Source of the DNA: Marsupella aquatica
Taxonomy: Eukaryota > Plantae > Marchantiophyta
Direction of reading: 5' to 3'
DNA length: 64,000 nucleotides
Assembly: GCA_973895155.1 (NCBI GenBank)
Contig: OZ316893.1
Span: 12,602,359 to 12,666,358 of the forward strand
The position numbers were made by a program, and so were the translations under genes. This document shows positions 8,280-55,090 of this stretch, piece after piece; the stretch's first letter is position 1; each line of letters opens with the position of its first letter. A model generated the notes under the pieces. That model searched no databases. It saw nothing but the letters and a program-made list of their open reading frames with translations, and was not told the origin of the DNA.

Positions 8280-11200
8280 ATGCGGCATTTGAAGACTACA
8301 AACGTTGGAGACGACGCTGATACGCAGGAAGTCTGTAATAGGTCACGGATAGAAGCTATTGGCCCTGTTGGACGACGGGCGCAACCAGAAGTTGGAGTTT
8401 CGGCTTCAGATTGGGACATAAGAAGACTGCATGTGGTTCCCAAGGACTTGCCTGTCAGTAGATTGCTGTGCGAGAATGCCTGGAACTCACTCACAGATTC
8501 TCAAAAGCATTTCGTGCATCATTTTGGGCGAGCTTCGTGGGCGGGAGCTCGAATATGTGCTCATCAGGTATCTCAGGTAATGCCTTCGATCAACAGCTCT
8601 CTTGCTTTTTCTATATTGCTGGCATGCCCCTAGAAACTGTTTTTTGGGTTATTACTACTACGGATGTCTTTAAGCCCAGAGAACCGGGGAGCTGGTTTCC
8701 TGATTTCATCTTGCTTATGATCACAACTTATGAACTTAGGTCCTCGACGCACAAATACGAACTGCTTTAGACTTCATACGTTTAGAAAACTCCCAGATCA
8801 AAGTCAAACGCAAAAGCAATGTTGTCAATAATTGAGGAGATAAACCGGCTCTAAGACCAGAAACATTAATGACGACCTTGGACTATTCCTTTACTGGTCA
8901 TCACTCTCGTTGACCGAGTAGAGAACTTTGCCCTAACATGTACCTCCTACTGTGTATTTAACTGTGGAAACCTTCGCCTTTTGTACGCGGTGTGACTATC
9001 TCTTGGTCCGACATCAACGGCGAGTACCATCGTGTAATTTTGTTTGCCGATGTATGCCAAGTGTACGAGTAAGTTGATAGCCTCTTGTTGGCACCAGCCA
9101 CGCATGAGAACTGGATCATGTGATAAAATTAAATAGAAAATAGAAATAAAGCATATCCTTACGTCTAGGATAATGACGGTCTGGTCGACCGTTACTAGGT
9201 TGTAATGGGACGACCAGGTTCTGACATAGTTGTGACCGGCGGTAGCCGGGAGCGACTGTGGAGGAACCGGGGAGGGCCAGTACAACGTAGTAACGGACGA
9301 CCGAGATCGTTATTAACGTACGTAATCATGGTTTTTAGTCCATATTACCGGCTGTGACCAGTTCAATCAATCGGGAACGTCGATGCAGTGCGAGCCGTGG
9401 CAGCGGGGTAAAGAAGGAAAGGGGCGCCTAGCTCCTCATTCAACATTTCGAATTGTGTTTGAGCTTTGGGCGGAGGCGACAAGCAGTAGCACCCGATTTG
9501 AGTTTGAGCTTCGTGCAGACGAGCAGCAGTAGCTGCCAACGATGAAACGATCAATAGCGCCAATGGAGAGCTTGAATGCAATGGAGATCAATGGAGCGAT
9601 GGAGATCAATTGAGTACAGTGGCAATGAGCGGGGAATGGCAGCATCGGGTTCAAATTTCTTTCAGCCAAGAATTGCTAGTTTCTTGGAGCGGTGACTGGC
9701 AGATGACAATCTTGTTTCCATGCAAGTTGATGAAGGAATGGCGAGTTGCATGGAGCGGGGAGTGACCGATATCCTTTTTGAATTTGTGTTTGTCTATGCG
9801 AGTTGCAACAGCGCCTTGAAGACAGTTGAGTTGCATACAGTCGAGTTGATAGAAGACTCTCATTCGCTGTGTACCTACAATCTTTTTAGTAACTATGTTA
9901 GCCCAGGTCGAGAGTTTGGTCTCATTCTCTGAAATACTAATGTCGATAGCACCCATGTTTGCTGGATGTGAAGTCTTGGACGAAGAGATGGCGGACGTGA
10001 GTGGGGGAATGCAAGTGAGTGAGAGCATTGTTAAGGACGTGAGTGACAATTCAGGGACAATCGACAGAGCAATAACCGATGTTGAAGAGCACTGGAGCTC
10101 TGAAGACTCTGATTTCCTATTAGTCGATGAGTTGATCGCTGGTGAGGAGATGGATGTAGATAGTCCTGATTTATCAAATGTTTTTGATGAGTTATCCAGA
10201 GAGAGTGCAACAGTCAATATCGTCACTGTTCTTGCTGAGAATTGTGTAAACATTCCTAACGACGGACAGATCGAGGCTACAGAGGCAACAAAGGTAAGCA
10301 TGCCAGGGCTGCGGGCGCTCCCCGACCCTGGTTTAGCAGATGCAGGGAAAGGAAAGGAGAGACTTCCTTCAGAGAACAATGACAAGTGGGCCTCGAAGCG
10401 AGCTAACGACCTGAGGAAAGGGTTAGGTTGGGACATGTCTATAGGTTTAGGAGACTTGCCATTGAGGCAACTCGATGAGTTATTGAGTAACCTATTTTCC
10501 AGAGTTGTTAAGGTCGATGGGACACCTTATCCCTCATCCACGCTTATGAACATGTGTAATGGATTCAATCGGATCATCAGAAGAGCGAGTGACATCAGGT
10601 CCTTGACAGAACAGACAAATCTAGTTGAGAGAGACTTCAACATAAACTCTCATCCAGCATTTGCAAAAACGCGGATGGTTGTCGTTGCTGCAATAAAAAA
10701 AAGCGCGAAGGAAGGACTAAACAAGAAGAGGCTGAAAGTGAGTATTACTTGATTCATAAGCCTTTCGCACTTACTGTATTGTTTAGTCCTTCCGCATACT
10801 GTTCTTTTAATTGAAGCAAAATCATCTGGCACCGATGGTAGTGCAATAGGTGCATTCTATGTAAAATCTTGTTGAATTCCTACCTCCAGCCGCAAATGCT
10901 TTGTGCTCACTCTAGGCGACCGATAATCTTTGAGCTCCTTCGCATAGGCACGTCACTCAAGGTTGGTTTCCTGATGCACTGGAGGGGAGTTCATTGACAC
11001 GAGGTTTAACTCCCGACAGAGAGCAGCTATCAGCTATCAAAATCGGTCTTGTCTAAGTCAGAAATGTGGAGAGCTTGTCCGAGACCGAATGGGGTCATCT
11101 CAGACAATTAATAGACCTTCTGACTTGGGAGTCATCCGAGAACAACGTTCAGGGCTTAAGCTACGATGTTTCTGCCAAAGATGTGGCTCGGTGTCGTACT

Positions 11201-14200
11201 TAACAGGGACTTGTGAGGACGCAGCTGACTCAGTCTTCCCAGGGTCGCTCATCCTTTGATTCCCTGTTCTCAATGTATCGATATACTAGAATTAGCAATG
11301 TGCACCACTATTCTCAATTTGCTAAGTCACAGACTTCAATTCACTAAAACAAAATAAAATCTAATCGTACGCAATGAGTGCCCGACTGAGTGGAACAACT
11401 GGACGTGATGATCGATCCCGACTGAGTGGAACAACTGGACATGATGATCGATCGACTCAGCTATTCTGTGACCGCAAAGCTTGTAGGGGGATGGTCCATC
11501 GACTATCTGTCCTGGCTTTTGCCTGTGTTCTGGAGTTAGAGACTTCAATGCACTGTCTGATTTCTGATAGACTTTTGGTTGTGTTTTGTTGCAGTCGGAA
11601 ATACTGACGGAAGAACACGAGAAAGCAATTTTGGCAGACATCGACCATCAAGTGACATCAAGCCATGGATGCCAAAAACGTTTGGCATTTTTTTTCCTTG
11701 TCAGGCTCGGTATTCGTGGAGGCATGGAACTGTGGAATTTACACAGAGATGATATTATTGTCTGCATTGATAGGTCTGGGAAGGAGTATGTGAAGTGAGT
11801 GCTCGATTGAAACCATGAATGAGTTTAATTGTTTGATGTTATATTTCCTCTTTCTCAAGACCCGCCCTGTGAGACTTCCCTGTAATAGAGCCTATCCACG
11901 GGAGAATGGAACCTGCGGCTGACACTCTTTGGTTTGCGCACTCTTTCTAAGAGTTTTACTGATGTTCGTGTGGCAGATTTGAGGAGCGATTAAGTAAGAA
12001 CAACAACTATAGCATGGATCGTTACAGTGAAGAGCAATTCAGAAATGTTTATCATAGTTACGAAGATGATTTTGTCATGACAGTAACACAATATAAGCGT
12101 CATCTGCCATGCCCTGAGGAGACAGAGAAGCCTGATTTGTTTATGCAGGCTATAACTAACCCTGTTAGCATTGTGTGGTACAATAAGTGTCAAAAAGTTG
12201 GGAAGGGGGCTGCAGGAGGTTGGCTGAAGAATATGGCGTTACTTGTGGGATTGCCCCCTGAAATTTTTACAAACCGAAGTGGGAGGGCAACATTAGTGAC
12301 GCGCATGGCTGCCAAAGGAGTGCCTGACGAGGTAGGCATGGCCATAACTGGTCATCGCAGTACTGGAGGGTACAAGAGATACGATAGAACTCAAAAGTTG
12401 AAAATGGAAGCTGCAGCCTTAGTCTCCTCAAGTCCGAATGTGGATTATGGACAGGCACTAGCTCACGTGTCAAAATCTTTCGTGGAGGAGGAGTTAGTCG
12501 GTTCCTCTACAGCTTTGAAACCCTTGATTGACAGGGTGAGTGAGAAATTCAACATGCAATTGGCGTTGCAAAATGGAGTACAGGTGAGTACGTACTGGAT
12601 TTTGCAATCTATCACTTCCGAAAAATTACGGACTACCGCCTCATTTCGATAAGAATAACCTGTCTACAATTCTTCGTGAAGTTTGAACTACAAGAAAGAA
12701 TTGTCGATCTTCCATGAATGCATCGATCTCTCAGCGGTCCAAGAAGTGAAATCGGCACGTCGCGAGGCGACAGAAGGATCTGTCTCTATCTCTGTCTCCG
12801 ACCTTGTTTTTGACTCGCATAGTTTTTCAACTTGTACATTTTGTGTCTTGTTCGTCCTTAGGGGTTTTAGTGGAGAGGGGAAGAGCATCGCAGCTCTGTT
12901 TTCGGAAAGGTGTCTTTATGTATTATTGTCTGATTGTAAATTTGTGTTCAGCCGGAAAACAATGTCTAACCGACTATACCAGAATTGTTGACCAGAATAA
13001 TTATCTGTTTTTCTTCTTGGATTATAGGGATCGAACACACCACAGAAGCAAGAGTTGGCAATAACACAGAACAACCAGGTGAGTTGTTGGTGAGGTGTTA
13101 GTAGTGAGGCTCTGTGTGGTTGGCATTTCAGACAAACGCCTGTCTTGAGGCATCGCCGTCAAGACACCTTCGCTCTTCAAAAGATTTACGTCAAAAGAGC
13201 TCTTCAAAAGTGTGTATCTATGGCTTCGGTCAATCTGCTCTGTGGTTTTTTTCTTGTGTGTGTCCACTTTACCTAGTCTCGGGAAGAGTTGGCGGTCGAA
13301 GAGAGTAGGAGAGGGGAGAGAGCTCAAGGTCATGTCCATGCAAACAGCGCTATGGGAGGTCGGTGGCTGGTGTGACCTAAATCAAGACTCGGACTGGCTC
13401 TAGTGTCTGTCACATGTCAAAATAGGGCTCGTTAGGTTTCTGGTGTGTTTCTCTCCGCTTCGTTTTCATCTGGAAAGGATAGGAGGAGATGGTGTTCTTC
13501 CTCGGGGCAGGGGCTGTAGGGTGGCTGTGATGGAGCCTCGCTTTTGAGCTTATTCCGTGTTAGTGGGGCGAGTTTGATACCTGGGACTTCACAGCTAACT
13601 TTTGTCGGCAGTAGTACCGTGTTCCCTGATGTTTCCATGAGGGAAAGGCTATTCAAAGTTTTCATGTCTGCTGACAGTGTAGTATTGCGCTTTTAAGCGC
13701 AGGATTCCTTGTACGTTCGGTTTTAGGCACGGGTCTATTTGGTTCCTTTAATTGGAAGGATTTGGTGGTGTGGATTGGAGCTCGGTAGTCCGGGTCCTTC
13801 CGTTCTTCCTTTCATATTACCTTTCAGGAGTCTGCCTTGCAGTAGTCTGGTGATTTTGATTAGCTTGGTTCCCAGTGCATCGCGTCGAGCGGAGATTTTT
13901 TTTGTTGTCTCAATAATCATACATGTCTCAGCTATAATATCTGCCGTAATCATCTAGTGATTTCAAGTAGATTTTGTTTTCGGATTGACCTACTTGTAAT
14001 TGACTTCCATGTTTCTTCTTTTTTGTGTCTTTCTTTCCTCAGCTCTTCAAAAGATCGTGTGTGCTATTACGTCCTTATTCTGAACCAAGCCCCTAAATTG
14101 TGATCGACTTGGCTGGGATTGTGCAATCGAAGTCATAGTGACAGTTGTGTGAAAATTATAAAATTAGGGTAAGATTTTGCCTTGCTCGCCCCGGGTAGCC

Positions 14201-17200
14201 TCGTAAAACTACGACAACCATTTTTGAAGTCCAAAGAATAAAGTAAGGCAGGTGCAGAGGGAGAGTATGTGACCCGAATGAAATTGCCCCGTAGAGCTTA
14301 TTAATTAATTTTGTACTTTTGGCTATTCTCAACAGTCAAACTCAAATGCTGTGAAGGTGTTGCAGGCAAAGAGGGACGAGTCAGAAATTCCTTACTATGA
14401 TGATGGTTTTGACTACGAGAGTGAATTTGCCAAGGATCCGATCCTTTACAAACGAATGTGCGGGAGGGCGTTTAAAAGGCCTAACGTGTCTGTGAAGAAC
14501 AGCTTGACAGGGAACCAATTTCACAATTGTTCCGTCACAATCAAGATTGTGCAGCCTACTAAGGAGGAGGAGGAGAAGGAGAATATGACATTATGAATTT
14601 AGACTTTGGCAGTGAAGAAGTCAGATATGATAGTTTTGACAATAAAACTTTAGGATTAGCTCAATAGACAGATCATGAATCTGCGTAGGTTTGATAGATT
14701 TGGCAATAAAACTTTAGGATTAGCTCAGTAGACAGATCATGAATCTGCGTACGTTTTCAGTTCCTATCTACTATAATAGGCCAGACAGATGAGTCATGTA
14801 TGACATGTCACTACAATTTAAAGTGTAGCAATGAGGCCTACAAATAAAGTGAAAATTTCTTCAAAAAATGTTACTTTCATTGGGCATGAGTCTCACAAAA
14901 TCTGTCGTACTTGTTGTCCACTATTCATTGACTGATGCCACCTACTTCCATGCGCTGGCTGCACCTTTCAAAATTGAAAGATATTGTGTCAGGATGTAAA
15001 TTTACACAAAGACATTTTGTCAGGACTCAAAATTACGCTGTCAGGAAGCAAACTTATAGTGTCAGAAAGCAAACTTACGGTGTCAGGCAGTAAACTCACA
15101 AGAAAGTGGTTGTGTCAGCCACCAACATTATGCAAATGGTGAGGTCCGCCAGATCCTTTCACCAGACGGTAACATGGACTATAGACCAAGATTACGGACA
15201 GTGTGACAGATGATCCTCGAGGCTACCAGCCAACAGCTAATACTTTTCCTATTATGGAATGTTCATTTTGTTAGCACCAAATGAACACTGAGCTTTTACT
15301 CTGACACCTCAGCGTTCTACATGAATCAAGATTACTGTAAATCGGTCACTGCCTCACCTGCTATTTGAGCTATAATAATTATGCGAGATTATGTGGACGT
15401 AGACCCCGAAAAGGAATGAGTGCTCGCAGGTAGTTATGCCAGAATTAGTATCGAAAATACTCACGGAGAATTGACTGGTTACAGGAAGGTCCAGATATTT
15501 TGCGGATCCTCCTCCTTCTCTTATCATCAACCGACCTCGAGGACTTGAAGAGGAGGAGCGAGTACGTAGGAGTGTCGCAGAATGAGTGGAAATACTTTGT
15601 TGCTTATGCAACCTGCTTTCTGACAAATTTAGGTAGAAATCTGCAGTTGAGATATTTGATTATATTCCTCCCACTTCCAGATCTAGATTTGTGAAATGTG
15701 AGTAGTCTTGTTCTAGCTTCTTGTCTCAATGATTTCTGCTGTAAGCAATCTGAGCCTACTTTTCAAATTTTAATCGTCAATGTTTCTTGATCGATTTTTC
15801 TACTATCATTCTGAGAATGCGTTCTGCATTATGTGGTCGCAGAAGTACCATCGTCAATTCTTCAATCAAAGACCATTGCCGAGCTGCTGGTACCGGATTC
15901 ATGCAGCTGTGGAATTTTAGTTAGGACTTAGCTTTATTTTTGGCTGTGCTGATTGCAGGCAACTATATTGCTTTTGGTGATCTAAAGATCGTTCCCGGTA
16001 TAAGGGAGGAGAAGTTTGACGCGATAGTAAGATCATGTCCATTACAGGTACAATTCGTCTGCAAATAGAGTCATTCTGCGTTTTCTCAGTTGCGGGATGA
16101 AATGGACCGTAGAAAGTTGTTATTATACATACGTGGACAGGATTGGTATTCATACACCGACGGGCAAATTGTATTTGTCGATTCGAGTACCATTCAAGAT
16201 AGACGTCAAAAAAGGTACTTGGATTTGAGGGCCTAAATTCTGTATGTAACAGGAGCAAAAGAAGCGAACACTGGTTTCTCTTTGGGAGAAGACACGTCAA
16301 AGAATCTACTCGCTACTGCCTGGTAAACTATCAGTTTCACGTTAGAGGCAAGACTCGTTTGCAAGTTTTGCAAGGTACCTTAAAATTCATGATATATATA
16401 TTATGCATTTGATTGTGAATGTGTGCGATGGTGCTAGGCATTTCTAGTTTGACCAATTAATTTACAGCTATATAACGGGACCCTAAAGTTCTTGTTCGAC
16501 TAAACTTGCTAGACTCAATTGTGAGCGAGCTTGTGCATTGAGGTCATTTTATCACGCGTTGATACAAAACCGCTAAAAATATTTTGGTATCGATCAGGGG
16601 AAAGAGTTCTCGGGTTTCCACCAGGTGGCCGTACGGCATACTACTCCGAAGGCATCACAGCGGAGGAGGTCAAACTTGTATCGGTATGCACTTCTTTAAT
16701 TTTGCCTCGGCAATTATCGTCTTAGCTATCTGTTTAAGAGGTTCATTTCATTCGACAAATACAACTCAGTTCATAAGTTCTCTCATCGAATTTGAAATTT
16801 CGGCTAGCGGGTCCTTCATTAATTTCAGAACATGTTTCTGTCATTAACGTTTCGTTCATCGTTTCAGGAGTGGATGAAGCAGGAGGGGATGGAACCTTGG
16901 AATACAAGGATCTGGCAGAGAGAAAGCTCTGGCAACTATGGTTCGCTCCCCGAATATGATCTTCGGATTGCATCTGCATTACAATTTCCAACTAAGACAT
17001 CTGTATATCAGGTCTGTGCCTGACCACACAGCTTTTTCTAACCGACGAATAGAAACTTCAAGCCCTCGCATGCCTAGACGAGTAACTTATTTCAAAATTG
17101 CATTTAGTTGTTCGAGAATCTCATCATGCATGCATCGACAATGTATCTGTAACGGTTAGCTTTCATGTACAGAACAAATGCGTTATACACGTCGTTTACG

Positions 17201-25336: not shown

Positions 25337-27942
25337 GAGTACTGGCTCGAGCTCATACTATAGCCTCGAGACTTAAGAGGCTTACAAGCTTGGTCCAATT
25401 GTCATCTTTTGACTATGTCAAGATTTTTTACTCTATTATAATTGGATTTTTATTTACTACCCGATTGTTCAATCTAAGGCATGTCGGACTTTGCCATTAA
25501 ATTTGAAACTGACTATCAGAATTCCAACCCAATCACCGATTTAGGAAATGTTGGATTGCTTGTCCAGGCCAGAACAATTGGACTGTTTGGTTTGATTCTT
25601 CTCTGATGCTAAATGAGCCAAAGACCCCTTTTTGAAGAAAAGCTTATTATAAGCAAGTGTTCCAGATCAAGTTAGAATTGTAAATTGTCATTCAATACAA
25701 ATTGGAAAATTTTTTATGTGCATTTTTATGATCTTTTGTTGAGTTATGGGGAATGAAGTGGAAAGGTGTTTTCATGACGAAAGTAGGTGAGATATTCCAA
25801 GTTTTGCAAGACGGGATGATTGTTTCGAAGTGCTAGGCAATGGGATTCATATTTGCAATCCAATTACAATGGGATTTTGGTCCAATTGTTGGTGAAACAG
25901 ACCTAGTTTGATTGTTTGAGGATTGGATAATGTGATTCAACTCTAGATTCAACTTAAACCAAAACATCGGGTTAGTGAACGGAGGGTTAACTCAATGTAT
26001 ATTTTGGGATCAATTTTTAAGTACATTGTCACTAAATTAAGATGTTTGAAATTTACAATACTTCCACTGTTTTATTCATATTCACACATATGCCAAAAAA
26101 TTTGTATGTAGTTGTTCTGATTGCCTTGGTGAACTTATCATCCATATTATTTTTGTAATTAAATACAAAAAGAATCGTGGTAGTATTGTCAACAAGACAT
26201 CTTTAAATTAGTGGCAAAGTACTTTAAAGTTGATTTGGGATACCACGACGTGTGATCCTAGCCTAATATAAATAATCCTATTTATAAATAAAATATTCTA
26301 GAAGTATTCTTTATTTTCACTATTAATTACCTATTTTACTTTTAAAAAGTATATATTAAAGAATATTTTATAACTTTGAGATTATAATACCTTCTTTTAC
26401 CTTCTACATACTTTTAAAGTTAGTTAATTTCCATCCCAAATATCTATTTTAAATCACACATGGTTTCTACAGTTTTTGGTAGTTACCCCTTTCCAAAATT
26501 CCTGGCTCCACAACATGCCATGTCATCATGGCACGCTGCAAACACGAAGAGACTTGTTTTTGGATAAAATTAAGTTATGTATTCGTGTTTGTGGCAACTT
26601 CTTTGTAAAAATTGGGACGCCATGCCATAAAAGAGAATATAAAAAACCTGACATGCAAATCAAAAGATAAAAAGATTAAGTCAAAACTACTCCCATAACT
26701 GTTTTATTTACATTTTTGAGTTTTTCAAAACATACAATAAATCATTCTCTAAAGTAAAAACTTCAAATGTCTGGTCCGTTATGTCTTGGTAGAGGAGCAC
26801 AATCAAAGTAACGTAAGTAAGTCTATTGGTGTGTTAGTAGACTTCTCTGGAGCGCAATCAAAGTAACATAAGTAAGTCACTCTATTGGTGTGTTAGTAAT
26901 GATGCTTGGCAAAGCAGTGTGTAGCTAGCGTCGTATTTTGTTGCTTGAGGAGTAGAGGATTCTCTGGTATGCTGCTTGGCAGAGAGTGTGTAGGGTTTAG
27001 GGCAGACATATGCCTTTCGTGTACATATCATTGGTGCCAAATTTGTGTATTCCTTGACCCTTTGAGCACTAATAGGAAAGCCTCTTTATCTCAAACCTTG
27101 CACCTATTTCTGGATGGGATCTATCATAGTTGTATCTCTGACATACACACTCCGTAGGTAAAAAAACATGTGCCCATTCTTTCCTAGTTTTTACAAAGAG
27201 TCATTTTTGGCACCTTTTGTAAGTGCAAAAAAGCCCAAATGCTTTTGCCTAATGACAGTCTTATAAGTGCAAACCCTTGACCACTATTCGTGATGACTTA
27301 TTCGTAAGCTCACAATCCCATGAATGACACATACTGATTAGTGCAAGGCATTTTCCAGGGCATTTCTATAGAGACAAAGTATGCCTTATGGGATAGGGGA
27401 TCATAAATAGTGTCGATGTACAATTAGGGTGGCAATCACAAGTATGCCATTGTTTGATAGACTCCCGCCCGGGTCCTCACTTCTTTTCTTCCGGGCTTTT
27501 TAATTCAACTGGGGAGAAGACTTTAAAAAATTGTTGAAAAAAATAGGGTTTTTTAATCCAATTTTGAGAATTCTAAAAACTATAGGGGTTTTGAATACCA
27601 AATTTGAGAATATTCCTAGAATATTCCTTAAAGTTCATGGTTAAAATAATATTTTTTAATTTATTTTATTAAGTTATAGGGTGTTTATTACTTGAAAACT
27701 TTCAGGTGATATGGGACCTTTCCTAGAGTGAAGCCCCCGAGGATAGACTAAGGGCCATTGCACATGGACACGCTACAAAATATTAGTAATAAATGCACAT
27801 AATCCATCTGTAAAAATGCAAAACTCCATAATTGTGCACTTATCACGTACTAGTGCAAACCCACATTAAGTTTACATCCAGTGCGTCTCCCACCAATAAA
27901 TGCACAACTCCATAATTTTGCGCTTATCATGTAGGGAAAACT

Positions 27943-27988
27943 CTCTCTAAGTGCACACCCAATAGTGATGAGTGTGCACTTAGAGAGA
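27943..27988. repeat. Inverted repeat/hairpin
   Basis: CTCTCTAAGTGCACAC ... GTGTGCACTTAGAGAG with a short spacer. Confidence 0.8.
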
Positions 27989-30278: not shown

Positions 30279-31621
30279 ATGGACGCCACCAACAACAGTA
30301 ACACCTGGAGGTCGGGTCTGGCTCAGGATTCGAGGCAGAAAATTGTGAAGCGCATGTGAGTTCCTTGCTCTTGTACTGAAGTTTAGACATCGGTACCGCT
30401 TCTCTGGTGGATACTGTTTCGCGTTGAGTGCACGGAATAGTGGAAGTTTTCCGTGAGAGGTGGCCTATGTTGAGAAGAAAGTGAAGCACATTCAAGTGCG
30501 CAACTGGTACTGCAAATGAAGCACTTCTGCTACTAGAAATCTGTTACTGACGAGAGATTTGATTGGAGTGCAGAATGGACACCCTTCAGAGACATATGCC
30601 ACCCACAGGACAGGAGAGCATGGGAGAGCTTTTGAAGATTGCTTGGCGGTTTGAGGAAAAAATATTTCATGCTGCAACCGACCAGGTCACACCCTCCAAA
30701 TTCTTATACTTAGAGCTTAATAATTTTAAGAGAGTCCGAGTGAGTTGTATCTTGTTTGTATCGTGCCTTGATTACAATTGGCGTAGCTCATATTCTGCTG
30801 TGACTATTCCAACTAACGAGCTGACCTGTTCCTGACTGCTTTCTCTTACAGCAAGACTATTTGCGGAAGATCTCCTTAAAAATGCTCTCCTTGGAAACAA
30901 AGGCCCAAGCCGCTCCAGGCCCTGGCATTCAAGCAAGGCTGGGAAACCCCTCAGGCGTTGTCAAATCACTCGACCCAGGTACGGATGTATTGTGACATGT
31001 CGGAAAGTTTCCAAGCCTGACCTTTTGTTAACATTTTTCCCTTTTTTATACTCGGCAAAGCCGGGTGGAAAAGTGCCCTCGTCTGTTAAGTTTGATGTTT
31101 ATGTTTGTCGCATATGTTATGGAGTAACTCTCACATCGAAACATTATGCTTTAGCACATATCCTGTGTAAGTCAGACTTAAGCTTGTAGCCCCTTGTGAG
31201 CCTTACATATAAACATTTGCCTTACGGCACCCTCTGTCTCCTTGGTAAAGGTATTTGTCCCTGTCGACAGACAGAGGGAAAGAACTATAGCTTGCTAATG
31301 CCCTCACTAGCTCGGGAAGATGCTCCTAGTTCTCACGTGTGGCCTTGAATTTGTAGGTCCTGCAATGTTGATGCAGAATCAGCAGAATTTGAGTAATCCA
31401 GTCCAATTACCTGGAACAGTTCCTGGGCAGGTACAACAGAGACAACAGCTGCTCGCTCAATCTCTTCAGAGTAATCTCAATGCAAATGCCATGCAAAGCT
31501 CCTCTGGCTTAGGTTCAAGTCTTTCAAATATGACTGGAATGCCCCAAGCTGCCCTTTCAGCCAATTCAGGGCAAAGCATGATGCTCAATGCCCAGAGGAT
31601 GGCGATGCACCAGCAGCGTCA

Positions 31622-31652
<31 letters not shown>

Positions 31653-34494
31653 CAACAACAACAACAACAACAAACACAGCAGCAACAACCCTCACAGCAA
31701 CAGGTATGTTATGTCTCAGCAAGTTTTGCAAATGGCGAAAGAATTGAAGAAGTCTTGCAGCAAAAGGGCTTCTAATTATGATTATGTCTCACTTTCCAAA
31801 TAAATAATCTACAATGTTGATCCCTCATTGTCTTGTGATTAGAAAAAACACTAAAGGCGGTAGAAGGTAGGATTATGGATCGAATTCTGTTTCCAGGAAG
31901 CCACAAACTTTTAACGAAACTTGATTTTTTGGGTCGGTCATATCATTTTGTTGATCATCAGGCTTCAGCCCAGCAGCAGAACTTGCTCTACCAACAGCGT
32001 CTACAACAGCAACAGCAGCAGCAACAACAACAATATTTGAAGGCAAAAATGCTGCAACAACAACAACAACAGCCATTACAGCAACAGGTGCTCCGTTTTT
32101 GTTTCTAATGCTTCCATGAAAGTGCTTAAGACCAGCGAAGGAAAGTTAAGAGCCGTCTGAATAGTGTGCCCGATCAATATCTGGCACCTCATGAGCAGAT
32201 TTATGTTGGCTGTTGTATGTGATAATGTCAGCTTAGTTATAGCTGCGTACTTTCTAACATAATTACTGTTTACACCCACCTAAGACTTATCAAGCCCTTT
32301 GTGTGTTAAATTCTGTTATTGCTTGGAATGGGGTTTTCCAGGTAACCCCTCTACAGCAGCAGCAGCCCCAAAGTCAGTTGATGTCTCAAGCAAACAATGT
32401 TCCTTCAGCACTTCAACAGCAGCAGCAGCAGCTTATACAAGCACAACTCTTGCAGCAGCAGCAAAAACAGCAGCAGCAGCAACAACAACAGCAACAACAG
32501 CAACAACAGCAACAGCAGCAAGCACAGCAGCAACAACAGGTGACACTGTGTTTAGTTGTGATCCCTTTCGGTAGAGACTACATCTCTGCTCGAGTTTCCC
32601 TACTAAGATTTTCTCTGTTTTCATTTTACTGGAGGAGCAGCAGGTGCAGCAGCAACAGCTCACAGCATTGCAGTCTCAGCAGTCTCAACAGCCGAACGCA
32701 ACTCAGCAAGTAGGGCAGCAGCCGCAGCAGCTCCAGCAACTCCAATCTGCCAACCAGCAAGCACAGCAGCAAAGGCTCCAACAACCAGGTAGGAGAGGTT
32801 AATTGACATATGCTTATCTAAAAAGATCATAAAGAAAAAGCCACTTTAGGGGCCTAGAAGCGGTTATGTCATGCGATCGTCAAGGCAATGGACGTAGGTG
32901 CAGAAAATAAGTTCGACTCGGTAACATGACTTTGCGAATGCTTCGTTTACACCGTATCTGTCGAGAGCCTCAGGTAGTATTGAGGGAAAAGCAAAGATTT
33001 AAGGTGTGTCGACAAGTAAGTTGACATCAGAGTGGACATCCTTCAATAAATGTCTTCTCATGGCGTAGCTATCTGATGTGTTGGCTCTGTAAATACACGA
33101 CTTCAATCACAACTTACGACGTAGGTATGTGTTGGACTCAAGGAAATCAGAAGTCTTGGCCTAGACGGCTCTAGTATGATTGTCTGTTGTGTATGCATTG
33201 TAGTATAGGAGAAACCAGGGTGCAGGAAATGGATGTTCAGCACTGCATAGGAAGCAATAGAATGTTATAAGTTTGATGGCAATCCATGTGACAAATCTCA
33301 TGTCCCGCGCAGGTGTTTTGAATCAGCAGCAACCAATCATTTATGATATTCAGAAGCACCAGAAGCAGCGTGCCTTTCCCGAGTCCTCCACTGGTATTGG
33401 CATTGTTCGCTCTGATCATTAGATTTTTGAAAGCGATCAATGATATGAAATAGCATTGTCCTTTTGTTAGAAGCTGCGTTCGTGGCTGAAGATGATGGTC
33501 TGGTGTTCTGAAGATTTTTAGTTAAGTTGGACAGCCTTTCGAACGCATTTGGAAATTTTGAATTTTTTTCTGGTGTTACAGCCTCTGTCGATTCGTCGGG
33601 CCACTCTGGGGCTGGTTTGGATCAGCGAGAAGTTGTTTGGCCAAAGGCAAGTAATTTTTGGTCGTAAGGTTTTTCCTTTCGAACTTAGTAATAACTGGAT
33701 TGAATGTACTGAGCTTGCTTTGCCGGACCTGCAAATTTTGACGAATGACTCATGTTTAGTCATGTCTCTTTCCAGTTGCAAGTGCTAAAGGACAAATACC
33801 TGCAAGATATGAAGGAGCTGTATGGTATGCTTACACAAAGGAGCACCATGGTGAGTTTGTCTTCCCATGATTACGGAACTGTAGCCTCGTTTTGCTAGTG
33901 TTTTAGGATTACTACCAGGGAATATGCTGAGGTACCGCACATCTAGTGAGATTTTCGGCGAAGGCTGGTCGTTTCGCCTGTGCCAATTAGTTACTCCCCT
34001 GTTGTATTTCGGGCACAATCATGGTATCTTTCAAGATTAGATGGCTGAGATAGCTCAAGTTCCATTCTGAAGTTGCCTAAGTTAGAGGCTGAAGTAGCTC
34101 AAGGGGGATTAGTATCCCCCTCATAGTATTGACCAGCATGTTCACTGTTGGAGGACTTAACATAACAAAGAAAGTTTGTTTCAATGTGCCAGCCAATGCC
34201 ACCCGAGCAGCTGCAAAAGCTTAAACACTACAAAGATGTGCTTCAACGCATGATTCCCTATTTGACAGTACCGAAAGAGCGAGTGCCTCGGGAATTTAAT
34301 CAAGATAAAGTAGAAGCCTTCGAGAAGCAAATTGTAAATATCATGGAGACTTTCAAGCGACGAAGGCAAACACCTCTACAACAACCTGTACTGCCGGCAC
34401 AACAACAACTGCAACCCAATCAGATTCCACAACCACCACAGCAGCAGCAGGCCCAGCAGCAACAGCAGGCTCAACAGCAACAGCAACAGCAGGC

Positions 34495-34526
<32 letters not shown>

Positions 34527-34555
34527 AGCAGCAACAACAACAACAGCAGCAGCAA

Positions 34556-34599
<44 letters not shown>

Positions 34600-37500
34600 A
34601 CTCCTCTCTCAAATCCAGCAGCAGGACAACAAGCAAATATCACTCTCGGGTAGTGGCCAGCCCACTATATCAACTCTCCATTCCAACAGTTTGTCTTCCA
34701 TACCGCAAAACATGGGACCTGCTGTACAGCAACCAGGAATGTCTTCCTTGCAACAGACAGGAGGAAATGCAGCACAAACTCATGCACCTAGTACGTTGCA
34801 GACGAGCGTTAATCCATCACAGCAAAGTGTGGTTCCTTCTCTGCAGCCCAGTGTTGTTAATACGATGCAACAAAATGGGATAAGTACTCAGCAACAAAGT
34901 AATGTCAACCCCCTGCAACAAAGTGTGGCAAACTCTGTTCAGGCATCGGGAACCACTGCACTTCAACCTGGTGTCAATAATTTACAGCCGCAAAGCGCAG
35001 TCAATGCCTTGCAGCAACCATCAGGTTCCAATCCATTGCAACCAAGCGGAGTAAATGCGCCGCAACAAGCTGGCTCTTTGCAACAGCAACAGTTGTTGCA
35101 CGTCCAGCAACAACAACAACAACGGTTGCTTAAAGATCAGGAGCAGGCCAAACAAGCACTCATTCAAAGACAGCAGCAGCAGCAGCAACTTCTTCAACAA
35201 CAACAGCAGCAACAACAGCAGCAGTTGCAGCAGCAGCAGCAGCAGCAGAAGCTTCACGCGCAAATGCAAGCCCAGCACTCTCAACAGCTTCCAGATTTCT
35301 CTGGTCCTGATGCCTTTAAAGGTGATAACAGTCTGAAGGTCAAACAAGGGGTTGCTAAACAGGTTTTACTTCAGCAACAGCAGCTGAAGCAAAGGCAGGT
35401 TTTCCAGCAACAAATGCTACAACAACAAGAACAACAACGGCAGCAACAGCAGCAACAGCAGCAACATCTGAAAATTGGTTCACCTCCAATGACTTCACAG
35501 ATGGTTTCCTCACCTCAAATCCTGCAAGCTCCTTCTCCACAAATATCGAATTCTCAGCAAATGTCTCCCCAAACAGACCATCAGAATTTCACAGCACCGC
35601 AAGTTACCAAGGTCGGTACTCCCTTACAGGCTGCCACACCGCCGCTCAAGACACCTTCCCCGTCCATGCTACCAGTTGGTTCACCAGCCGCTCAGGAAGA
35701 AATTGATGTGAAAATTGGCACACCTGCCAACTCGACTCTAGGCACTGCTCAAAATCTTCAATCCACCGTTGCAACGCCAAATAATGTAGTCGGTATCGGG
35801 ACACCTGGACCCTCAGTGTCCCCACTGATGGTTGATTTCTCTCCAGGCCCGGCAGCAACAGGAGTCCCTCAGGATGGAATGCTAGGTTTTTCGCCTGGTA
35901 CGCCTCTTGTGGATAAAACAAACATGGATCCAGTTGAACGTTTGGTCGCAAAGGCAGGTGCTCTTATCCATGACTTAATCTTCTTGTTTATTCAGGGAGA
36001 CTGTGATCACCACTAGTCAGCTATTACAGTTTAATTCACCCGAGCCTCTCTCACACTCGTCAGAGTGGCAGTGCCTCCTCTGGCAAGGTTATTCGGGATT
36101 GCTAATGACTAGGTTTGTCATGAGTCTGCTATTGAAAACAAATTTGGAGCTGTCGAACTGACTAGTTCAATCTGGGTGCGATTCTGTAATTATCTGGCAG
36201 CCGCTAGATTACTTTCTTTTAGGTGTCTTGCTTGATTTGGAGAGTGTCAGTGATGAGCAGATGTCAATTCTCTGCATATGTCTCAGTTTTAGTCTATTTC
36301 GAGTTTTCGGTGTGGTTTGGTTGCTGAAACATTGTCAACTGGTGTAGTAGTTTCCTTAAAAGGATCGATCTCCTTACATGGGAGTTGCCTCGTTGCAGGT
36401 TGATTCTATGCCAGCGAAAGCGTTGTGTGCAGCAGTCGGAGAGCTATGTGCTGTCGTCAGCTGCAGTGATAAGCTCGGAGTTTCTGCACCTGGAAATGGG
36501 TCCAGAGCTGCAGTTGGGGAGGATCTATCTTCTCATACGAGAGCAAGGTTACAATCCAAGGTCTGGGTGAATCAAGATAGTAGCAACCCTGTAAAGAAAA
36601 AGTCACGCAGGATGGATTCTGTCGCATTAAGTCTTATTTCTCAAGATGGGTTTGTCGCAAACAGTCTACCCAGGGCAGAGGGCTTTGAGTTGGAGACGGT
36701 ACGCTCAATAGTTCCAAATTTCCAAAGCGCCAGAGTGAAGGTACGTGAATCTTAAGACACCGTTTACGTTTTTACATACTGTTAGTTTGTATCTTTATCC
36801 TTGTTGGATGTACTCGAGAGCAATATTTTTGCCTGATATGATGTGTAAACGATAGTCTTGTTTCCTTCTTGTCATCTTCTTCCAGCATACTAGTTCATTC
36901 TATGAGAGATCTAGACTTACTCGAGGGCACTGGACTGCAGATCCCTTTCCTGTAGGCCTCGCATGTTTGTTGTCCGTAGAGTCTACTGGCGCTGGGTTTT
37001 TTCTTTTATTCATTCTTATGTCGGGAACTCTTAGGTTTGTTCACAACAGGAGTACGTGTGCTAGGAATAAGCAGGTTTCACAAATGTCCGCAGGTGCCCC
37101 TAGCAGTAAGAGAGGAGATACGGCACATTAACGACTGTCTCATAGATACCGAAGTGGAGGTCAGTTACGAAGGCTCAGAAGAAGCTGCAGCGCAAGGAAG
37201 GGAAGGTGTGGTCGTGAATTGCGCCTACAAATGTGTTGCAGTGAGTCCTACTGTGACTCCAAACAAAATGGTAAGGACAACATCCCAGGCTCACTCCAGC
37301 ATTTTGCAAGCTCCGGGCTTCTACCGTTATTTGTCGTCGAACTTTTTACTGAAAGCATGGAGTTGCAGAACAGGAATAAGTGTCTTGCATAGTTGAAATA
37401 CTTGTGGATCTGCATTCTTTGATTAAAGGTTGCTATCGTGTGCAGATTGCACTTCCTCGTGTATGGTTTCTCATTCCTCCAAGCTATCCTCAGTCATCTC

Positions 37501-43652: not shown

Positions 43653-44248
43653 AATTAGTTCGTGGACCCCTTGACTAATTGATAGTCTAGTTATCACAAA
43701 CAGTTTTCAAAATCAGGCCTTTTTGGTACATGCTACCAAATTCTCAGGCTACAAGAATCAAAATTCAATTTGTGACATTTGCAATTAGATGAATGTCTGA
43801 TCAAATGAATTGTTTAAGTTCGTTGAGTGTTCAAGTTTGGACCATGGCTAGCAGTTTACCTTAATTGCAAAGGGCCGGAAATCTTACTCCAGGTGCCAAT
43901 TACCCTTTGACAAGGAAATTATCAAGTTAGTTATTAGTCATTATTTATTATATGAAAAACATTTTTTTATAAATCTTTGAATTTAAGTTTTAAAATTGGA
44001 AATGTAACTAAAATGGTTACATAGTGCCAGTTTTAACTGTCTTGCTATTTACATTTCTAATTTTTTACTTTTCTTTTTACGGCATGGCGTCCCAAAATTT
44101 ACACTCAAATTGACACAAACACGAATGATAACTATAAGTTTGATTCACAAAACTGATGAGTCTTGTTTGTTGCGATTGTTATTGACGTGGCACAATGTGG
44201 TGCCAGGAATTTTGGAAGGGACCTCTAGTGGGGTCCAGAAAGAAAATT
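43653..44248. mobile_element. Non-autonomous TIR element, copy 1 (GGACCCC-cored termini)
   Basis: Left AATTAGTTCGTGGACCCC, right GGGGTCC. Segment 43915-44236 is highly similar to 54763-55080. Confidence 0.6.
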
Positions 44249-44630: not shown

Positions 44631-45890
44631 TGATGCATGCCATAGAAAACTACAGTACAATAATCTCAGGGGTCTAATTATATGGAGGCCTCCCATCAGT
44701 GCAAGGTTTAGGGTGTTTAGGCCTCAAACCCTCTAATTGTGAGAATAGTTTTTAATTTTTTAACTCCTATGAAATTGAATATTCCAAAAAATTGATCAAA
44801 TTAAAGACCCTAAGTCTCAAATTTGGATTTAAATACCATACTGTTTGTTTGAGAAAATTCTTAAATCTTCCCTTAGAACAAATAAAACGACCTTATCTTT
44901 AGTTGCATGTAATATGCCAGTTTTTGTTTGTAGAAGTTTAGGGGTGTGGTGTAACTTGGGGTGTGGTGTCCTAGGCCATGCATTGCTTGGGGAGGTCCCC
45001 TTTAGATATGGCCGGCTTATTATTATTCAGTTGTGGTCGTTGCAATGTGCTCAGCTCAGCTCAAGTCTATTCTACTCTACTCAGACAACTCTGATCGGAT
45101 CAGTGAGTTGAAGAGCTCGATCCATCATCACGTGAATGATGCGTTCAATTCTACTCCCTATAACGATGCAGTACAAAAAGAGATCAGTGATGCTTTTCTT
45201 GTATGACAGAGGAGTGCAATGTACGTGATCGCTCCAGTTGGTTGCTGCTTTGCTCCATAATTAGTCAGTCCGAGGTCTGGCCGAGGAGTAACCGAAACTG
45301 ACACAATTGAATTGTTAAGAATTCGGTAAAAATATAAAACACAGGCAAAGAAGAAAAGCCGCCAATTCATTAGGGTGTCTCAAACCAGGCCCTCTGCAGA
45401 CTTTTCTCATGAACGATCTGCTGCAAACTAAAAATTTTAGTGACTGAAAGGCTGCAACTTCTGCTGTTGAGAGTGTCAATGCTGCGCATTCATTTGATTA
45501 ATTGAAATGTGCATGCTGCTTGGTTGCGAAGTAGTGGATGCGTTCAAAAATGCCTTTCGAAATGTCTAGCCCGTACGTAGCCGTTGAATTGAACTCAACT
45601 TGGACGGCATAGTGCCACTCATGCCGTATGGTGAACCCAGAGGCGGGTCTTGTGACCCATCTCAAATCAAAGTCCCATCCAGTGATATTTGACTATGGAG
45701 ATAAACGACGATTTGCTCATGACCCTGGATGTATGTTTCCTGTCACTGCAGCCCTGAAATTATTGGGAAAGTCCAGGTTCGAGATGCCACGGCTAATATT
45801 TGTGGAAAGGAATCTTGAAATCAGGTCAGGAAGTAATCCAGAAACGTACGCATCTGCACTTCTGCAGGTCCCTCAGTCTCGAGCTAGGGC

Positions 45891-45891
<1 letters not shown>

Positions 45892-45925
<34 letters not shown>
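45892..45925. repeat. (TA)n microsatellite
   Basis: Directly visible. A shorter one lies at ~55108-55124. Confidence 0.95.
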
Positions 45926-45927
<2 letters not shown>

Positions 45928-47194
45928 CTGCAACGTAGGAGAGGATCGATTCAAAGCATTTCACGTAAGAATCTAAGGTTTAACCTTTTGCAGAGAGGTA
46001 CCCCAAAACTATATGTTGCTGTTGTTCGAGATCCTACTTTTTGGGTTCTCCTTTAAATGCTGTTTGACACTTTTCTCTTCTGAGTTTGTTTCTATAGGCA
46101 TCTTTTTGATTGAAGTGGTTGGGCAGTTACGCATAGGGACAGATTCCTGGGCATTACAGTAAAGCAGTTGACAAGAATTCCAAGCTAACAGAAATCGCCC
46201 ATGTGGCACGAGCTAGTAGTCCCAGTCCATTTGAGTCTGTGAGGAAGAAACGTTGTTGACTCGCTCAAGATTCCGCAAATCAGACGAGACACCATCGTAA
46301 GTTTCGTGGGAAGAAAACAAATGATAGGATTATGGAGTGTAAAACAAGTTTTCCAGCAAATCTCTTGGGGGTGGAAAGTCCCAGGCGTTCGAGTCACTGG
46401 GTCTGAGTGAACGATAGAGTAGTTGTAAAAGTTAAACTCAAGCAAATATAAAGTTCGTCAGGGTGGAGCATGATAACTGCTGTCCACGAGGATATGCTAG
46501 GAATATTTTTTATTTTAATTTAGTAGATTACTCTAAACCTATTCGATCTTCCCAGGCTAGGAGTGCCAACAGATTCTAGCTGATACGTCCCGGGCTTGGT
46601 AGTAAACTGACTAAATAATGAGACAAATGAGCCAGAATTAGCCAAAAGTGGCAAAAAGGTTTTTCAGAAGGCTACTAGAAAGTCTAGTATTCCTGGTAGA
46701 CCCGCCCCCTGTTCTGTATCTATTTTTCAATCTTGTCCATCCTTTCTTAATATATGTTCAATTATGTTAAATTGACATTACATATATGATTGAGGGATAC
46801 CTAAAACTAATCTATCTCTTCCCAAGAGTGTGATTAATAAACTCTTTAATTAACAGTTATAACTTCTCCCATTTTAACTACTTCTCACAGTTTTGTTTTC
46901 TAAGTTTATGTTTTGAGTGACTTGCCTTGCTGACTAAAGTCATTATGAGAGAAACATGAGAAGTCCACAATTTTTTGATTAATACATAATCTTTTAGAAC
47001 TTAAACAGTTGCATATTAGAAAATTGACATGTGGATATAAGAGTGGGGAAACTGCGCAAGTCATCCAACATTAATTTATTCTTGCTTTAAGGATATTCAT
47101 AAAAAAATAGTACTAAACAGAAATAATTAAGTTTTCTACTTGATATCAGAATTATGGAGAAGAAAACTATAAGACAAGCTTTTTACTTCCTTTT

Positions 47195-47545
47195 GGGATC
47201 CTCACACCTTTACTTATTTTAAACAATTTTTCTTGCTAATCTATTTAGACATGATAGTTGTCAAAATTTTTGAATACCATTAATTTGGGGAAGGTTCCTA
47301 AAAGTTAGATCAACCTTATCAGGAATTGGTATTATTTATGTACGAAACTTTCTTTGCCACTTTTTACAAGCTTTCTGAGATCCTCACACCTTTAGTTAGA
47401 TTAAAGAAAGTTATTTCGCTAATCTATTAGATATGATACTCTCTTCTAAAAGCTTTTAATATCATATGTGGAAGGTTGCTAAAAGTTACAGCAACCTTAC
47501 CAGATATTGATATTTTCTCTCCCAGAAAATTTCTTTGCCAGTTTT
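47195..47545. repeat. Diverged ~180-bp tandem duplication
   Basis: GATCCTCACACCTTTA...GCTAATCTATT...GGAAGGTT.CTAAAAGTTA...CAACCTTA...TTTCTTTGCCA occurs twice. Confidence 0.7.
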
Positions 47546-54248: not shown

Positions 54249-55090
54249 AATTAGTTAGTGGACCCCTTGGCTAATAAAATAGGGGAAGAGTCGATCTGAG
54301 CTGTCTCCATTTTTTATCTCCGGAAATCTCGTCTGTCCATCATAATGACCAATCTATGGCTCAAAAGAAAGATCTCAAATAAATCTATGGATGGGTTCTG
54401 TCCGTTTTGCAAATGGGTTAATATTTTTCAAATGAAAAATTAAATAAATCCAAGCTTTCCTAGTCGTCGATTTTGTTAATTTTACAATCTTTGCCGTCCA
54501 TTTTGTAATGCCTCTAGAAATCTTATTCATCCATGTTAGAAGGCGATCTAGGGTGCAAAAGAAAGATCTCAATGAGATCTACGAGTGGGTATTTTTTGTT
54601 TTGAGAATTAGTAAATAGTTTTGAGTATAAAATTCGATGAACTTTCAAGATTCCAGCCATTCCTCCTCCCCGATCCTGGATTTCTATGTGCTCTTTCCAG
54701 CATTAATGGCCCTACAATACGAGAGGTCCTTATATACCGGGAGTTATGGTTTAACAAAGAAGTTATCAAATTAGTTATTAGTCATTATTTATTATATGAA
54801 AAATACTTTTTATAAATCTTTGAATTTAAGTTTTAAAATTGGAAATGTAACTAAAACGGTTATATAGTGACAGTTTTAACCGTCTTGCTCTTTGCATTTC
54901 CAATGTTTTTACTTTTCTTTTTATGGCACGGCGTCCCAAAATTTACACCCAAATTGACACAAACACGAATGAAAATTATAAGTTTGATTCACAAAACCAA
55001 AAAATCTTGTTTGTTGTGGTCGTTATTGATGTGGCACGCTGTGATGCCAGAAATTTTGAAAGGGACCTCTAGTGGGGTCCGTAATTAATT
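54249..55090. mobile_element. Non-autonomous TIR element, copy 2 (MITE-like, ~840 bp)
   Basis: Imperfect TIRs AATTAGTTAGTGGACCCC and GGGGTCCGTAATTAATT. The right ~320 bp is shared with the copy at 43653-44248. Confidence 0.65.

What the first reader, a model, noticed from the sequence alone, without database searches (positions are those of the whole stretch)
9159..15196. RT-less tyrosine-recombinase element whose internal sequence is complementary to its own circle junction
Seen: both ends carry TTACG. Joining right end to left end gives ...CAGACGGTAACATGGACTATAGACCAAGA-TTACG-TCTAGGATAATGACGGTCTGGTCGACCGTTACTAGGTTGTAATGG. The reverse complement of internal 9277-9358 reads ...CAGCCGGTAATATGGACTAAAAACCATGA-TTACG-TACGTTAATAACGATCTCGGTCGTCCGTTACTACGTTGTACTGG. 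So one internal segment pairs with both termini, 6 kb apart, and switches partner exactly at TTACG. Known: this is the geometry of the internal complementary region (ICR) of DIRS retrotransposons, where it serves reverse transcription. As I know them, Cryptons have only short terminal direct repeats and sometimes subterminal inverted repeats. Here the gene has spliceosomal introns and no RT, so an RNA intermediate is unlikely. Inference: one strand folds so the ICR splints the two TTACG ends into a duplex-like substrate for the YR, as in integron attC or CTX-phage attP folded-strand recombination. Alternatively, a transcript of this region acts as a guide/splint RNA. This is the best candidate for an undescribed system in the window.
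Basis: partly seen in the sequence, partly recalled or inferred. Interest (0 to 1): 0.93.

Follow-up and report, generated by a model that had tools for sequence, protein, structure and literature searches.

The report
Plant Crypton with self-pairing end junction
A multi-copy jumping gene, likely from a seedless land plant, encodes only a Cre-like recombinase and carries beside its left end a mirror copy of the joint its two ends would form; only one DNA strand is predicted to fold well there, so it likely moves as a folded single strand, as bacterial integron cassettes and CTX phage do.

Summary
Observation confirmed. 9159-15196 is a multi-copy element with TTACG at both ends, and public contigs place its borders exactly there. 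It holds one intron-containing tyrosine recombinase (YR) gene related to DUF3504/CryptonA, with relatives in liverworts, a moss, ferns and lycophytes, and no reverse transcriptase. Segment 9245-9354 is a mirror copy of the right-end/TTACG/left-end join. Its left-end half closes an 80-pair hairpin; 29 more bases match the right end 6 kb away. New evidence: all 20 non-Watson-Crick positions of the hairpin are purine-purine or G.T on the + strand (p about 2e-6), the skew described for integron attC sites. Diverged copies mostly keep or restore the stem. Best reading (0.5): the folded + strand is the recombinase substrate, with one strand exchange finished by replication. Rivals: an RNA hairpin or splint (0.2), or a second protein-binding site in duplex DNA (0.2). 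Not shown: any circle, empty site or single-stranded form, or covariation between right end and mirror copy across families. It is a Crypton with an end design I did not find in print, not a deleted DIRS.

The parts
9159..15196 (+). Whole Crypton-type element, 6038 bp
   Evidence: run X1: flank contigs end at 9188 and begin at 15167, i.e. 30 bases inside 9158 and 15197 (31-letter words). Loose ends before 9159 in 4-5 contigs in each of three runs. Depth of identical inner contigs 57-70 against 14-20 in flanks.
9159..9163 (+). Left TTACG direct repeat (predicted crossover core)
   Evidence: sequence
9159..9240 (+). Left terminus = 5' arm of hairpin; 2-nt unpaired offset at 9164-9165 next to the core
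9241..9244 (+). 4-nt hairpin loop
9245..9325 (+). Mirror copy of left end (3' arm), ending in CGTAA 9321-9325; single unpaired purine at 9303; tandem GA/AG mismatches facing 9212-13, 9223-24, 9234-35
   Evidence: kept in diverged copies
9326..9354 (+). Extension complementary to the right end (24 of 29 Watson-Crick)
9895..10737 (+). YR gene, first mapped exon (start codon uncertain; N-terminal/core-binding part)
   Evidence: tblastn with P0001
10738..11594 (+). GT-AG intron, 857 bp (inferred from homology, no RNA seen)
11595..11794 (+). YR exon with first catalytic Arg (11715-11717)
11795..11976 (+). GT-AG intron, 182 bp (inferred)
11977..12583 (+). YR catalytic exon: Lys 11996, Arg in place of His 12275, Arg 12284, His 12353, predicted catalytic Tyr 12380-12382
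   Evidence: His+9 spacing for the Tyr is recalled
14402..14596 (+). Last coding exon (C-terminal tail); small exons between 12584 and 14400 not resolved
   Evidence: tblastn with P0001, E 5e-7; stop at 14594-14596
14987..15118 (+). Six TGTCAG copies, four on a 21-bp period: likely accessory protein-binding array
   Evidence: chance about 3e-11
15163..15191 (+). Right terminus, partner of 9326-9354
15192..15196 (+). Right TTACG direct repeat
   Evidence: sequence

Best explanation
This is a multi-copy Crypton-type DNA transposon whose + strand likely folds so that the internal mirror copy pairs with the joined ends and would give its tyrosine recombinase a duplex-like site made from one strand. 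Shown: borders, TTACG repeats, YR gene, mirror copy, one-strand skew, conservation of the stem in diverged copies. Inferred steps: (1) when the + strand is single-stranded or extruded, the left end folds on its mirror and the free 29-nt extension captures the right end, aligning the two TTACG cores; (2) the YR exchanges one strand, releasing a + strand circle; (3) in the circle the junction and mirror form a stem of about 110 pairs; (4) the YR joins the junction strand to a duplex TTACG target, the 2-nt offset beside the core blocks the second exchange, and replication finishes the insertion. The other donor strand keeps the element, so copy number would rise.
For: All 20 non-Watson-Crick positions among 80 facing pairs are purine-purine (14) or G.T (6) on the + strand, none pyrimidine-pyrimidine or A.C (two-sided p 1.9e-6, or 1.5e-5 counting each tandem once). 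Dispersed inverted repeats in the same window are balanced. 14 of 20 are transversion-type, although changes among copies are mostly transitions (p 0.0015). The joined region folds at -70.1 (+) against -53.4 (-) kcal/mol as DNA. The same skew marks the recombined strand of attC sites (PMC5027507), and CTX attP(+) is two inverted sites folded into a stem (PMC3442271). In 40 of 89 variant rows shown, 6 turn a reference non-pair into a Watson-Crick pair, 14 give G.T on +, and four column pairs have both-side changes. None of the 11 listed indels touches 9159-9197 or 9287-9365, so the core offset and the 9303 bulge persist. YR fold: Cre-like, DUF3504-like. Active Chlamydomonas Cryptons both excise cleanly and gain copies (PMC9977147).
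Against: No circle junction and no empty site among the 15 of 32 joints shown; contigs drop rare forms. The skew fits an RNA fold as well (RNA -140.2 vs -106.6), and the three tandem GA mismatches recur every 11 nt. The right-end pairing shows no strand bias among its 5 mismatches, and its covariation across families is untested. All four both-side changes are transitions, one at CpG, and were tied to contigs only by depth sums; two were resolved, one ambiguous, one unresolved. 5 of 40 variants break a pair outright and 3 give uncompensated A.C. One diverged copy in all four runs lacks 9197-9742, mirror included. The first 45 bases are covered about five times deeper than the mirror arm in X1, so many relatives may lack or differ in it. 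The model's nearest solved folds are Cre, with integron integrase far lower. Starships, another eukaryotic YR group, are reported to use a circular intermediate without any hairpin mentioned.
Confidence: 0.5

Rival explanations
1. The fold works as RNA: a transcript from the left end forms the hairpin and either regulates the YR gene or splints/guides the two DNA ends; in the extreme a full-length RNA is copied by an RT supplied in trans.
For: The favoured strand is the sense strand upstream of the YR gene. G.U pairs and tandem GA mismatches on an 11-nt period suit an RNA helix; RNA fold -101.5 (+) vs -67.0 (-). Longest perfect run is 9 pairs, which could limit dicing (inference).
Against: The right-end partner lies about 570 bases past the stop codon. 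Mismatches between mirror and termini are kept, which templated copying of ends would erase; DIRS extensions are described as theoretically 100% identical (PMC3266345). No precisely intron-less copy among the 15 of 32 joints shown. No Rfam match at E <= 1.
Confidence: 0.2
2. No folding is needed: the mirror copy is a second, inverted recombinase-binding or accessory site in double-stranded DNA, and the element moves by the ordinary Crypton duplex circle.
For: YR sites are inverted arms around a short core (PMC3212892). The extension in diverged copies keeps blocks rather than the whole sequence (loose ends, read by eye). A TGTCAG array at the right end points to protein-binding sites.
Against: A duplex site gives no reason for a 20 of 20 one-strand skew, or for pairing that runs 80 pairs up to a 4-nt loop, far beyond the 11-13 bp arms of a YR site.
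Confidence: 0.2
3. The mirror copy is a functionless relic of a fold-back or inverted self-insertion of a circle junction, kept alike by arm-to-arm conversion.
For: The mirror is an inverted junction adjacent to the end, as such an event would leave. One copy lacks it.
Against: Kept in several families 80-90% alike and in three organism labels. Neutral decay or conversion would give strand-balanced, mostly transition-type mismatches; the opposite is seen.
Confidence: 0.07
4. It is a deleted DIRS-like retrotransposon that has lost gag and RT/RNase H.
For: An internal region complementary to both termini and overlapping at the junction is the DIRS hallmark. One of 53 relatives scanned (P0081, an Adiantum nelumboides gene model) carries a partial RT domain.
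Against: The YR is DUF3504-like, fills the element and has introns. No ITRs; mirror at the 5' end; 5-bp core. P0081 lacks the catalytic end of the YR, its sister Adiantum proteins lack RT, and its RT piece looks Ty3/gypsy-like by eye (recalled), so a fused gene model is likely.
Confidence: 0.03

Closest known systems
Crypton DNA transposons, nearest the CryptonA/DUF3504 group (Kojima and Jurka 2011, PMC3212892; Glomhoppers, PMC13465315)
   Same: YR as the only enzyme, short terminal direct repeat (5 bp), introns, DUF3504-like fold, no C-terminal GCR1 domain.
   Different: Terminal hairpin plus mirror copy of the junction. Those papers report short direct repeats only, no terminal repeats for animal CryptonA/I, and no identifiable repeats for Glomhoppers. 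Land-plant clade; His of H-x-x-R replaced by Arg (Lys in 16 of 24 aligned rows).
DIRS1-like retrotransposons, internal complementary region (PMC3266345)
   Same: One internal segment complementary to both termini and overlapping at the circle junction; YR integration.
   Different: No RT/RNase H or gag, no ITRs, mirror at the 5' end and continuous with a hairpin, 5-bp not 3-bp junction, 17-25% structured mismatches.
CTX phage attP(+) (PMC3442271)
   Same: Two inverted copies of the site on one strand fold into a stem; distortion next to the crossover region.
   Different: CTX uses host XerC/D and a packaged single-stranded genome; its site is masked after integration. Here the element encodes its own YR and one of the two sites exists only after end joining.
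Integron attC sites (PMC5027507)
   Same: Imperfect hairpin with unpaired bases near the core; purine and G.T enrichment on one strand.
   Different: attC is read by IntI; here the stem is longer, sits at a transposon end and is completed by the far end. No IntI relationship beyond the shared YR fold.
SE elements, strand-biased circularizing integrative elements (PMC9345347, abstract only)
   Same: YR elements that release a circle of one specific strand, giving copy gain.
   Different: Bacterial, four genes with two YRs; no mirror copy mentioned in the abstract.

Membership tests
Crypton superfamily | YR is the only transposition enzyme; no RT | tested here: met
   (39 frames, no family at E <= 0.01)
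Crypton superfamily | Short (4-6 bp) direct repeats at both termini | tested here: met
   TTACG at both borders
Crypton superfamily | No terminal inverted repeats or long direct repeats | tested here: met
   no left-end/right-end inverted pair among the 25 longest of 39
Crypton superfamily | Interspersed copies with common borders | tested here: met
Crypton superfamily | Excision to an extrachromosomal circle (proposed, not demonstrated: PMC13565253) | not testable with these tools
   only contigs available; no junction among joints shown
CryptonA / DUF3504 | DUF3504 (PF12012) domain | tested here: inconclusive
   No Pfam hit for window exons or P0001. Atlas: DUF3504 clusters score 0.98, TM 0.76. 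Relative P0006 hits below the curated cut-off. Plant rows are set apart from canonical DUF3504 rows, SH-aLRT 99, quick tree without outgroup.
CryptonA / DUF3504 | R-H-R-Y tetrad | tested here: not met
   R, R, Y present; His position is Arg here and Lys 16, Arg 5, Gln 2, gap 1 of 24 rows. Filed as CryptonA-related, not CryptonA.
DIRS1-like retrotransposon | RT/RNase H and gag | tested here: not met
DIRS1-like retrotransposon | Inverted terminal repeats | tested here: not met
DIRS1-like retrotransposon | Internal region complementary to both termini, overlapping at the junction | tested here: met
DIRS1-like retrotransposon | ICR at the 3' end with a 3-bp junction | tested here: not met
   5' end, 5-bp core
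Folded single-strand YR sites (attC, CTX attP(+)) | Imperfect hairpin carrying the crossover core, with strand-skewed unpaired bases | tested here: met
Folded single-strand YR sites (attC, CTX attP(+)) | Recombinase cleaves the folded strand and exchanges one strand only | not testable with these tools
   needs biochemistry
Folded single-strand YR sites (attC, CTX attP(+)) | Enzyme is IntI or XerC/D | tested here: not met

The most novel reading that the evidence does not exclude
A lineage of Crypton transposons in seedless land plants moves replicatively through a folded single-stranded DNA circle, a eukaryotic counterpart of integron and CTX phage recombination. Its mirror copy of the junction would then be the DNA-level forerunner of the DIRS internal complementary region, inherited when a Crypton gained reverse transcriptase.
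Probability: 0.35. Interest if true: 0.92.

Novelty: new variant of a known kind. Interest (0 to 1): 0.78.

Why it matters
A 2026 review states that the Crypton transposition mechanism has not been demonstrated experimentally (PMC13565253), and active Cryptons both excise and gain copies, which the duplex-circle model does not explain (PMC9977147). This element offers a defined substrate of about 230 nt, a predicted active strand and near-identical copies, so the question becomes testable with oligonucleotides and one protein. If the fold is the substrate, single-strand recombination by a tyrosine recombinase would extend from bacteria to plants, and the DIRS end structure would gain a plausible origin. 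It also points to Cryptons in land plants, which my searches did not find described.

Tried and rejected
No whole genome is held for this window, so other copies could be read only through contig tables. DNA of related elements was not obtained. The search for related loci found no relative in metagenome contigs (120 pattern hits, none confirmed) or viral contigs (225, none). A degenerate motif gave 0 viral, 13 metagenome and 11 genome loci, and none of the 24 matched any of 167 proteins by tblastn. No RNA holder was listed. Pfam gave no YR family for window exons or P0001; Rfam gave nothing. One diverged copy looked 3 nt shorter in both arms, but the letters shown do not support pairing there, so I did not count it. 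Depth-sum assignment of variants failed for most left-arm rows because only 8 contigs per run are listed. The careful tree did not finish; the quick tree is cited, 49 of 146 candidate rows passed the length filter, and it has no DIRS outgroup. A recalled lead, that vertebrate Eulor repeats (Eulor5/6 are Crypton-derived, PMC5753468) are self-complementary, was not confirmed. Two searches for plant Cryptons were swamped by unrelated papers and are weak evidence of absence.
Full report
Observation. TTACG stands at 9159-9163 and 15192-15196, and its complement at 9321-9325. The join of right end, TTACG and left end aligns to the reverse complement of 9264-9354 at 78.5% over 93 nt (E 2e-15 in the window), while the genomic flanks do not match. 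Each half beats 1000 shuffles: 44 against a best of 32 for the right end, 50 against 30 for the left end. The pairing continues to a 4-nt loop, so 9159-9240 and 9245-9325 form a hairpin of 80 facing pairs (z -8.8), and 9326-9354 extends it with 24 of 29 Watson-Crick matches to 15163-15191. In a circle this would be one stem of about 110 pairs.

Borders and copies. Four public runs from two studies hold 94-97% of the sampled words; one may be the source of the window. In run X1 the flank contigs end at 9188 and start at 15167, which with 31-letter words puts the shared sequence at exactly 9159-15196. Inner contigs with 0-1 differences lie at depth 57-70 against 14-20 in the flanks, which suggests three or four near-identical copies; depth is not a copy number. 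Four to five contigs in each of three runs run on unlike the window before 9159. Diverged families at 80-90% identity share 9159-9327 and diverge after it, and a fifth run under a third organism label has 6 contigs on the left end. Among the 15 of 32 joints shown there is no circle junction, no empty site and no precisely intron-less copy. One diverged copy, seen in all four runs, skips 9197-9742 and so lacks the mirror arm.

The gene. Exons 9895-10737, 11595-11794 and 11977-12583, joined at two GT-AG introns, give 550 codons without a stop, 52% identical over 544 residues to a Calypogeia fissa protein, P0001. A tail exon matches at 14402-14584. The introns are inferred from homology; no RNA run was listed. 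Pfam names neither protein, but the Atlas places P0001 with DUF3504/phage-integrase clusters (0.98; TM 0.76), and its model matches Cre recombinase best (E 6e-7). R, K, R, H and Y are present; the His of H-x-x-R is Arg here and Lys in 16 of 24 aligned rows. A library search gave 561 relatives at E <= 0.001. Of 30 looked up, the named ones are from Calypogeia, Marchantia, Riccia, Ceratodon, Adiantum, Diphasiastrum and Selaginella. In a quick tree of 49 rows the plant rows are set apart from canonical DUF3504 rows (SH-aLRT 99, no outgroup). No family at E <= 0.01 was found in 39 frames inside or overlapping the element. Of 53 longer relatives scanned, one Adiantum gene model carries a partial RT domain; I read it as a fused model, but did not test that. 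The host is likely a seedless land plant: an AP2 gene lies in the window and the nearest YR is from a liverwort.

Evidence for a one-strand fold. The hairpin has 60 Watson-Crick pairs and 20 other positions. On the + strand all 20 are purine-purine (14) or G.T (6). Strand-symmetric decay makes that unlikely (p 1.9e-6; 1.5e-5 counting tandems once), and dispersed inverted repeats in the window are balanced. Fourteen of the 20 are transversion-type, against 35% transversions among copy variants in run X2 (p 0.0015). Three tandem GA/AG mismatches recur every 11 nt, and two bases next to the core are unpaired. The joined region folds at -70.1 against -53.4 kcal/mol as DNA and -140.2 against -106.6 as RNA, + against -. 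So the + strand is under selection as a single strand, but the energies cannot tell DNA from RNA.

Variation among copies. One search shows 40 of 89 variant rows. With the partner unchanged, 6 turn a non-pair into a Watson-Crick pair, 14 turn a pair into G.T on +, 6 into A.C (3 of these have a compensating partner change listed), 5 break a pair, 7 alter an existing mismatch without making a Watson-Crick pair, and 2 are unpaired. Both-side changes appear at 9210/9275, 9237/9248, 9211/9274 and 9206/9279. Depth sums place the first two in the same contigs, the third in one of two solutions, and leave the fourth open. All are transitions, so this is modest support. None of the 11 listed indels falls in 9159-9197 or 9287-9365. 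One loose end after 9325 matches the complement of the window's right end at 13 of 22 places in register, including three of the four places there at which the window's own mirror does not (counted by eye). That shows shared constraint, not pairing, because the right ends of those families were not seen. Against a universal design, the first 45 bases are covered about five times deeper than the mirror arm in X1.

Mechanism. I favour a folded + strand DNA substrate (0.5). The mirror would align the two TTACG cores, the YR would exchange one strand to release a circle, and the folded junction would integrate at a TTACG target by one exchange and replication. Every catalytic step is inferred by analogy. 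CTX attP(+) is two inverted sites folded into a stem, recombined by one strand exchange (PMC3442271, passages). The recombined strand of attC is enriched in purines and G:T pairs (PMC5027507, passages). SE elements release one-strand circles (PMC9345347, abstract). An RNA role (0.2) fits the skew and the 11-nt period, but not well a partner beyond the stop codon or the kept mismatches. A purely duplex second site (0.2) does not explain the skew. A relic (0.07) and a deleted DIRS (0.03) are weak.

Comparison and novelty. Cryptons are described with 4-6 bp direct repeats only; animal CryptonA/I were reported with no terminal repeats, and the supplement lists direct repeats, two TIR cases or none (PMC3212892: passages, section 8, supplement 1). 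Glomhoppers were reported without identifiable repeats (PMC13465315, passages). The mechanism is undemonstrated (PMC13565253, passages), and active elements excise yet gain copies (PMC9977147, passages). The DIRS ICR has the same logic but lies at the 3' end, with ITRs, RT and a 3-bp junction (PMC3266345, passages). DIRS have been proposed to derive from a Crypton plus RT (as cited in PMC6681497, passages). Starships use a circle (bioRxiv 10.64898/2026.09.21.753150, passages). Searches found no Crypton with a mirror junction, and 9, 22 and 57 none in land plants. The library lacks most subscription papers, Goodwin 2003 and Repbase entries were not seen, and such ends may be noted there; PMC5753468 (passages) did not mention structure. 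Four unchecked notes of this scan report the same layout in YR elements of other genomes. I could not test them and do not count them as support, but they suggest the design may be widespread.

Verdict. The feature is real and conserved. It is a Crypton, related to but not filed in CryptonA, with an end design not found in the papers searched: a new variant of a known kind. Interest 0.78, because it makes an open mechanism directly testable.

Noticed in passing
window 10710-10724 / 10779-10793: Perfect 15-bp inverted repeat, 54 nt apart, enclosing the first intron's donor site at 10738; could affect splicing of the YR gene.
   Followed up: no
window 9150-9158 and 15197-15210: Flanks of other copies end in TCA before TTACG in three runs (weak consensus); the window's right flank holds GACAG and TGACAG, close to the inverse of the subterminal TGTCAG motif. 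Possible target preference beyond the core.
   Followed up: partly
window 9161-9166 (loose ends): Other families join the left end at 9166 after AAGTA instead of TTACGTC, suggesting sister families with a different core.
   Followed up: no
window 9191-9203 (loose end at 9204, run X5): One diverged copy has a short stretch like the plant telomere repeat (recalled) in place of part of the left arm.
   Followed up: partly
window 11381-11453 and 14628-14756: Tandem duplications inside the element: 36 bp x2 in intron 1, 64 bp x2 after the stop codon.
   Followed up: no
window 60252-61682, - strand: Two ORFs; the downstream one has weak Atlas likeness (0.85, lead only) to clusters with the Mutator family PF20700. 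Possibly another DNA transposon.
   Followed up: partly
window 43906-44236, 54750-55080, 26488-26660: A 330-bp repeat in two copies 90% alike, with a partial inverted third copy.
   Followed up: no
window 50638-52431 (-) and 31311-36016 (+): Host genes: an AP2-domain ORF and a long glutamine-rich gene resembling Mediator subunit 15 (recalled, not tested).
   Followed up: partly
window 45889-45928, 27942-27988, 47458-47514: Short palindromes of 40-59 nt outside the element.
   Followed up: no
proteins P0028, P0062, P0069, P0077: Marchantia, Diphasiastrum and Selaginella relatives; P0028, P0062 and P0069 show degenerate catalytic ends in alignment A2 and may be domesticated plant Crypton genes.
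   Followed up: no
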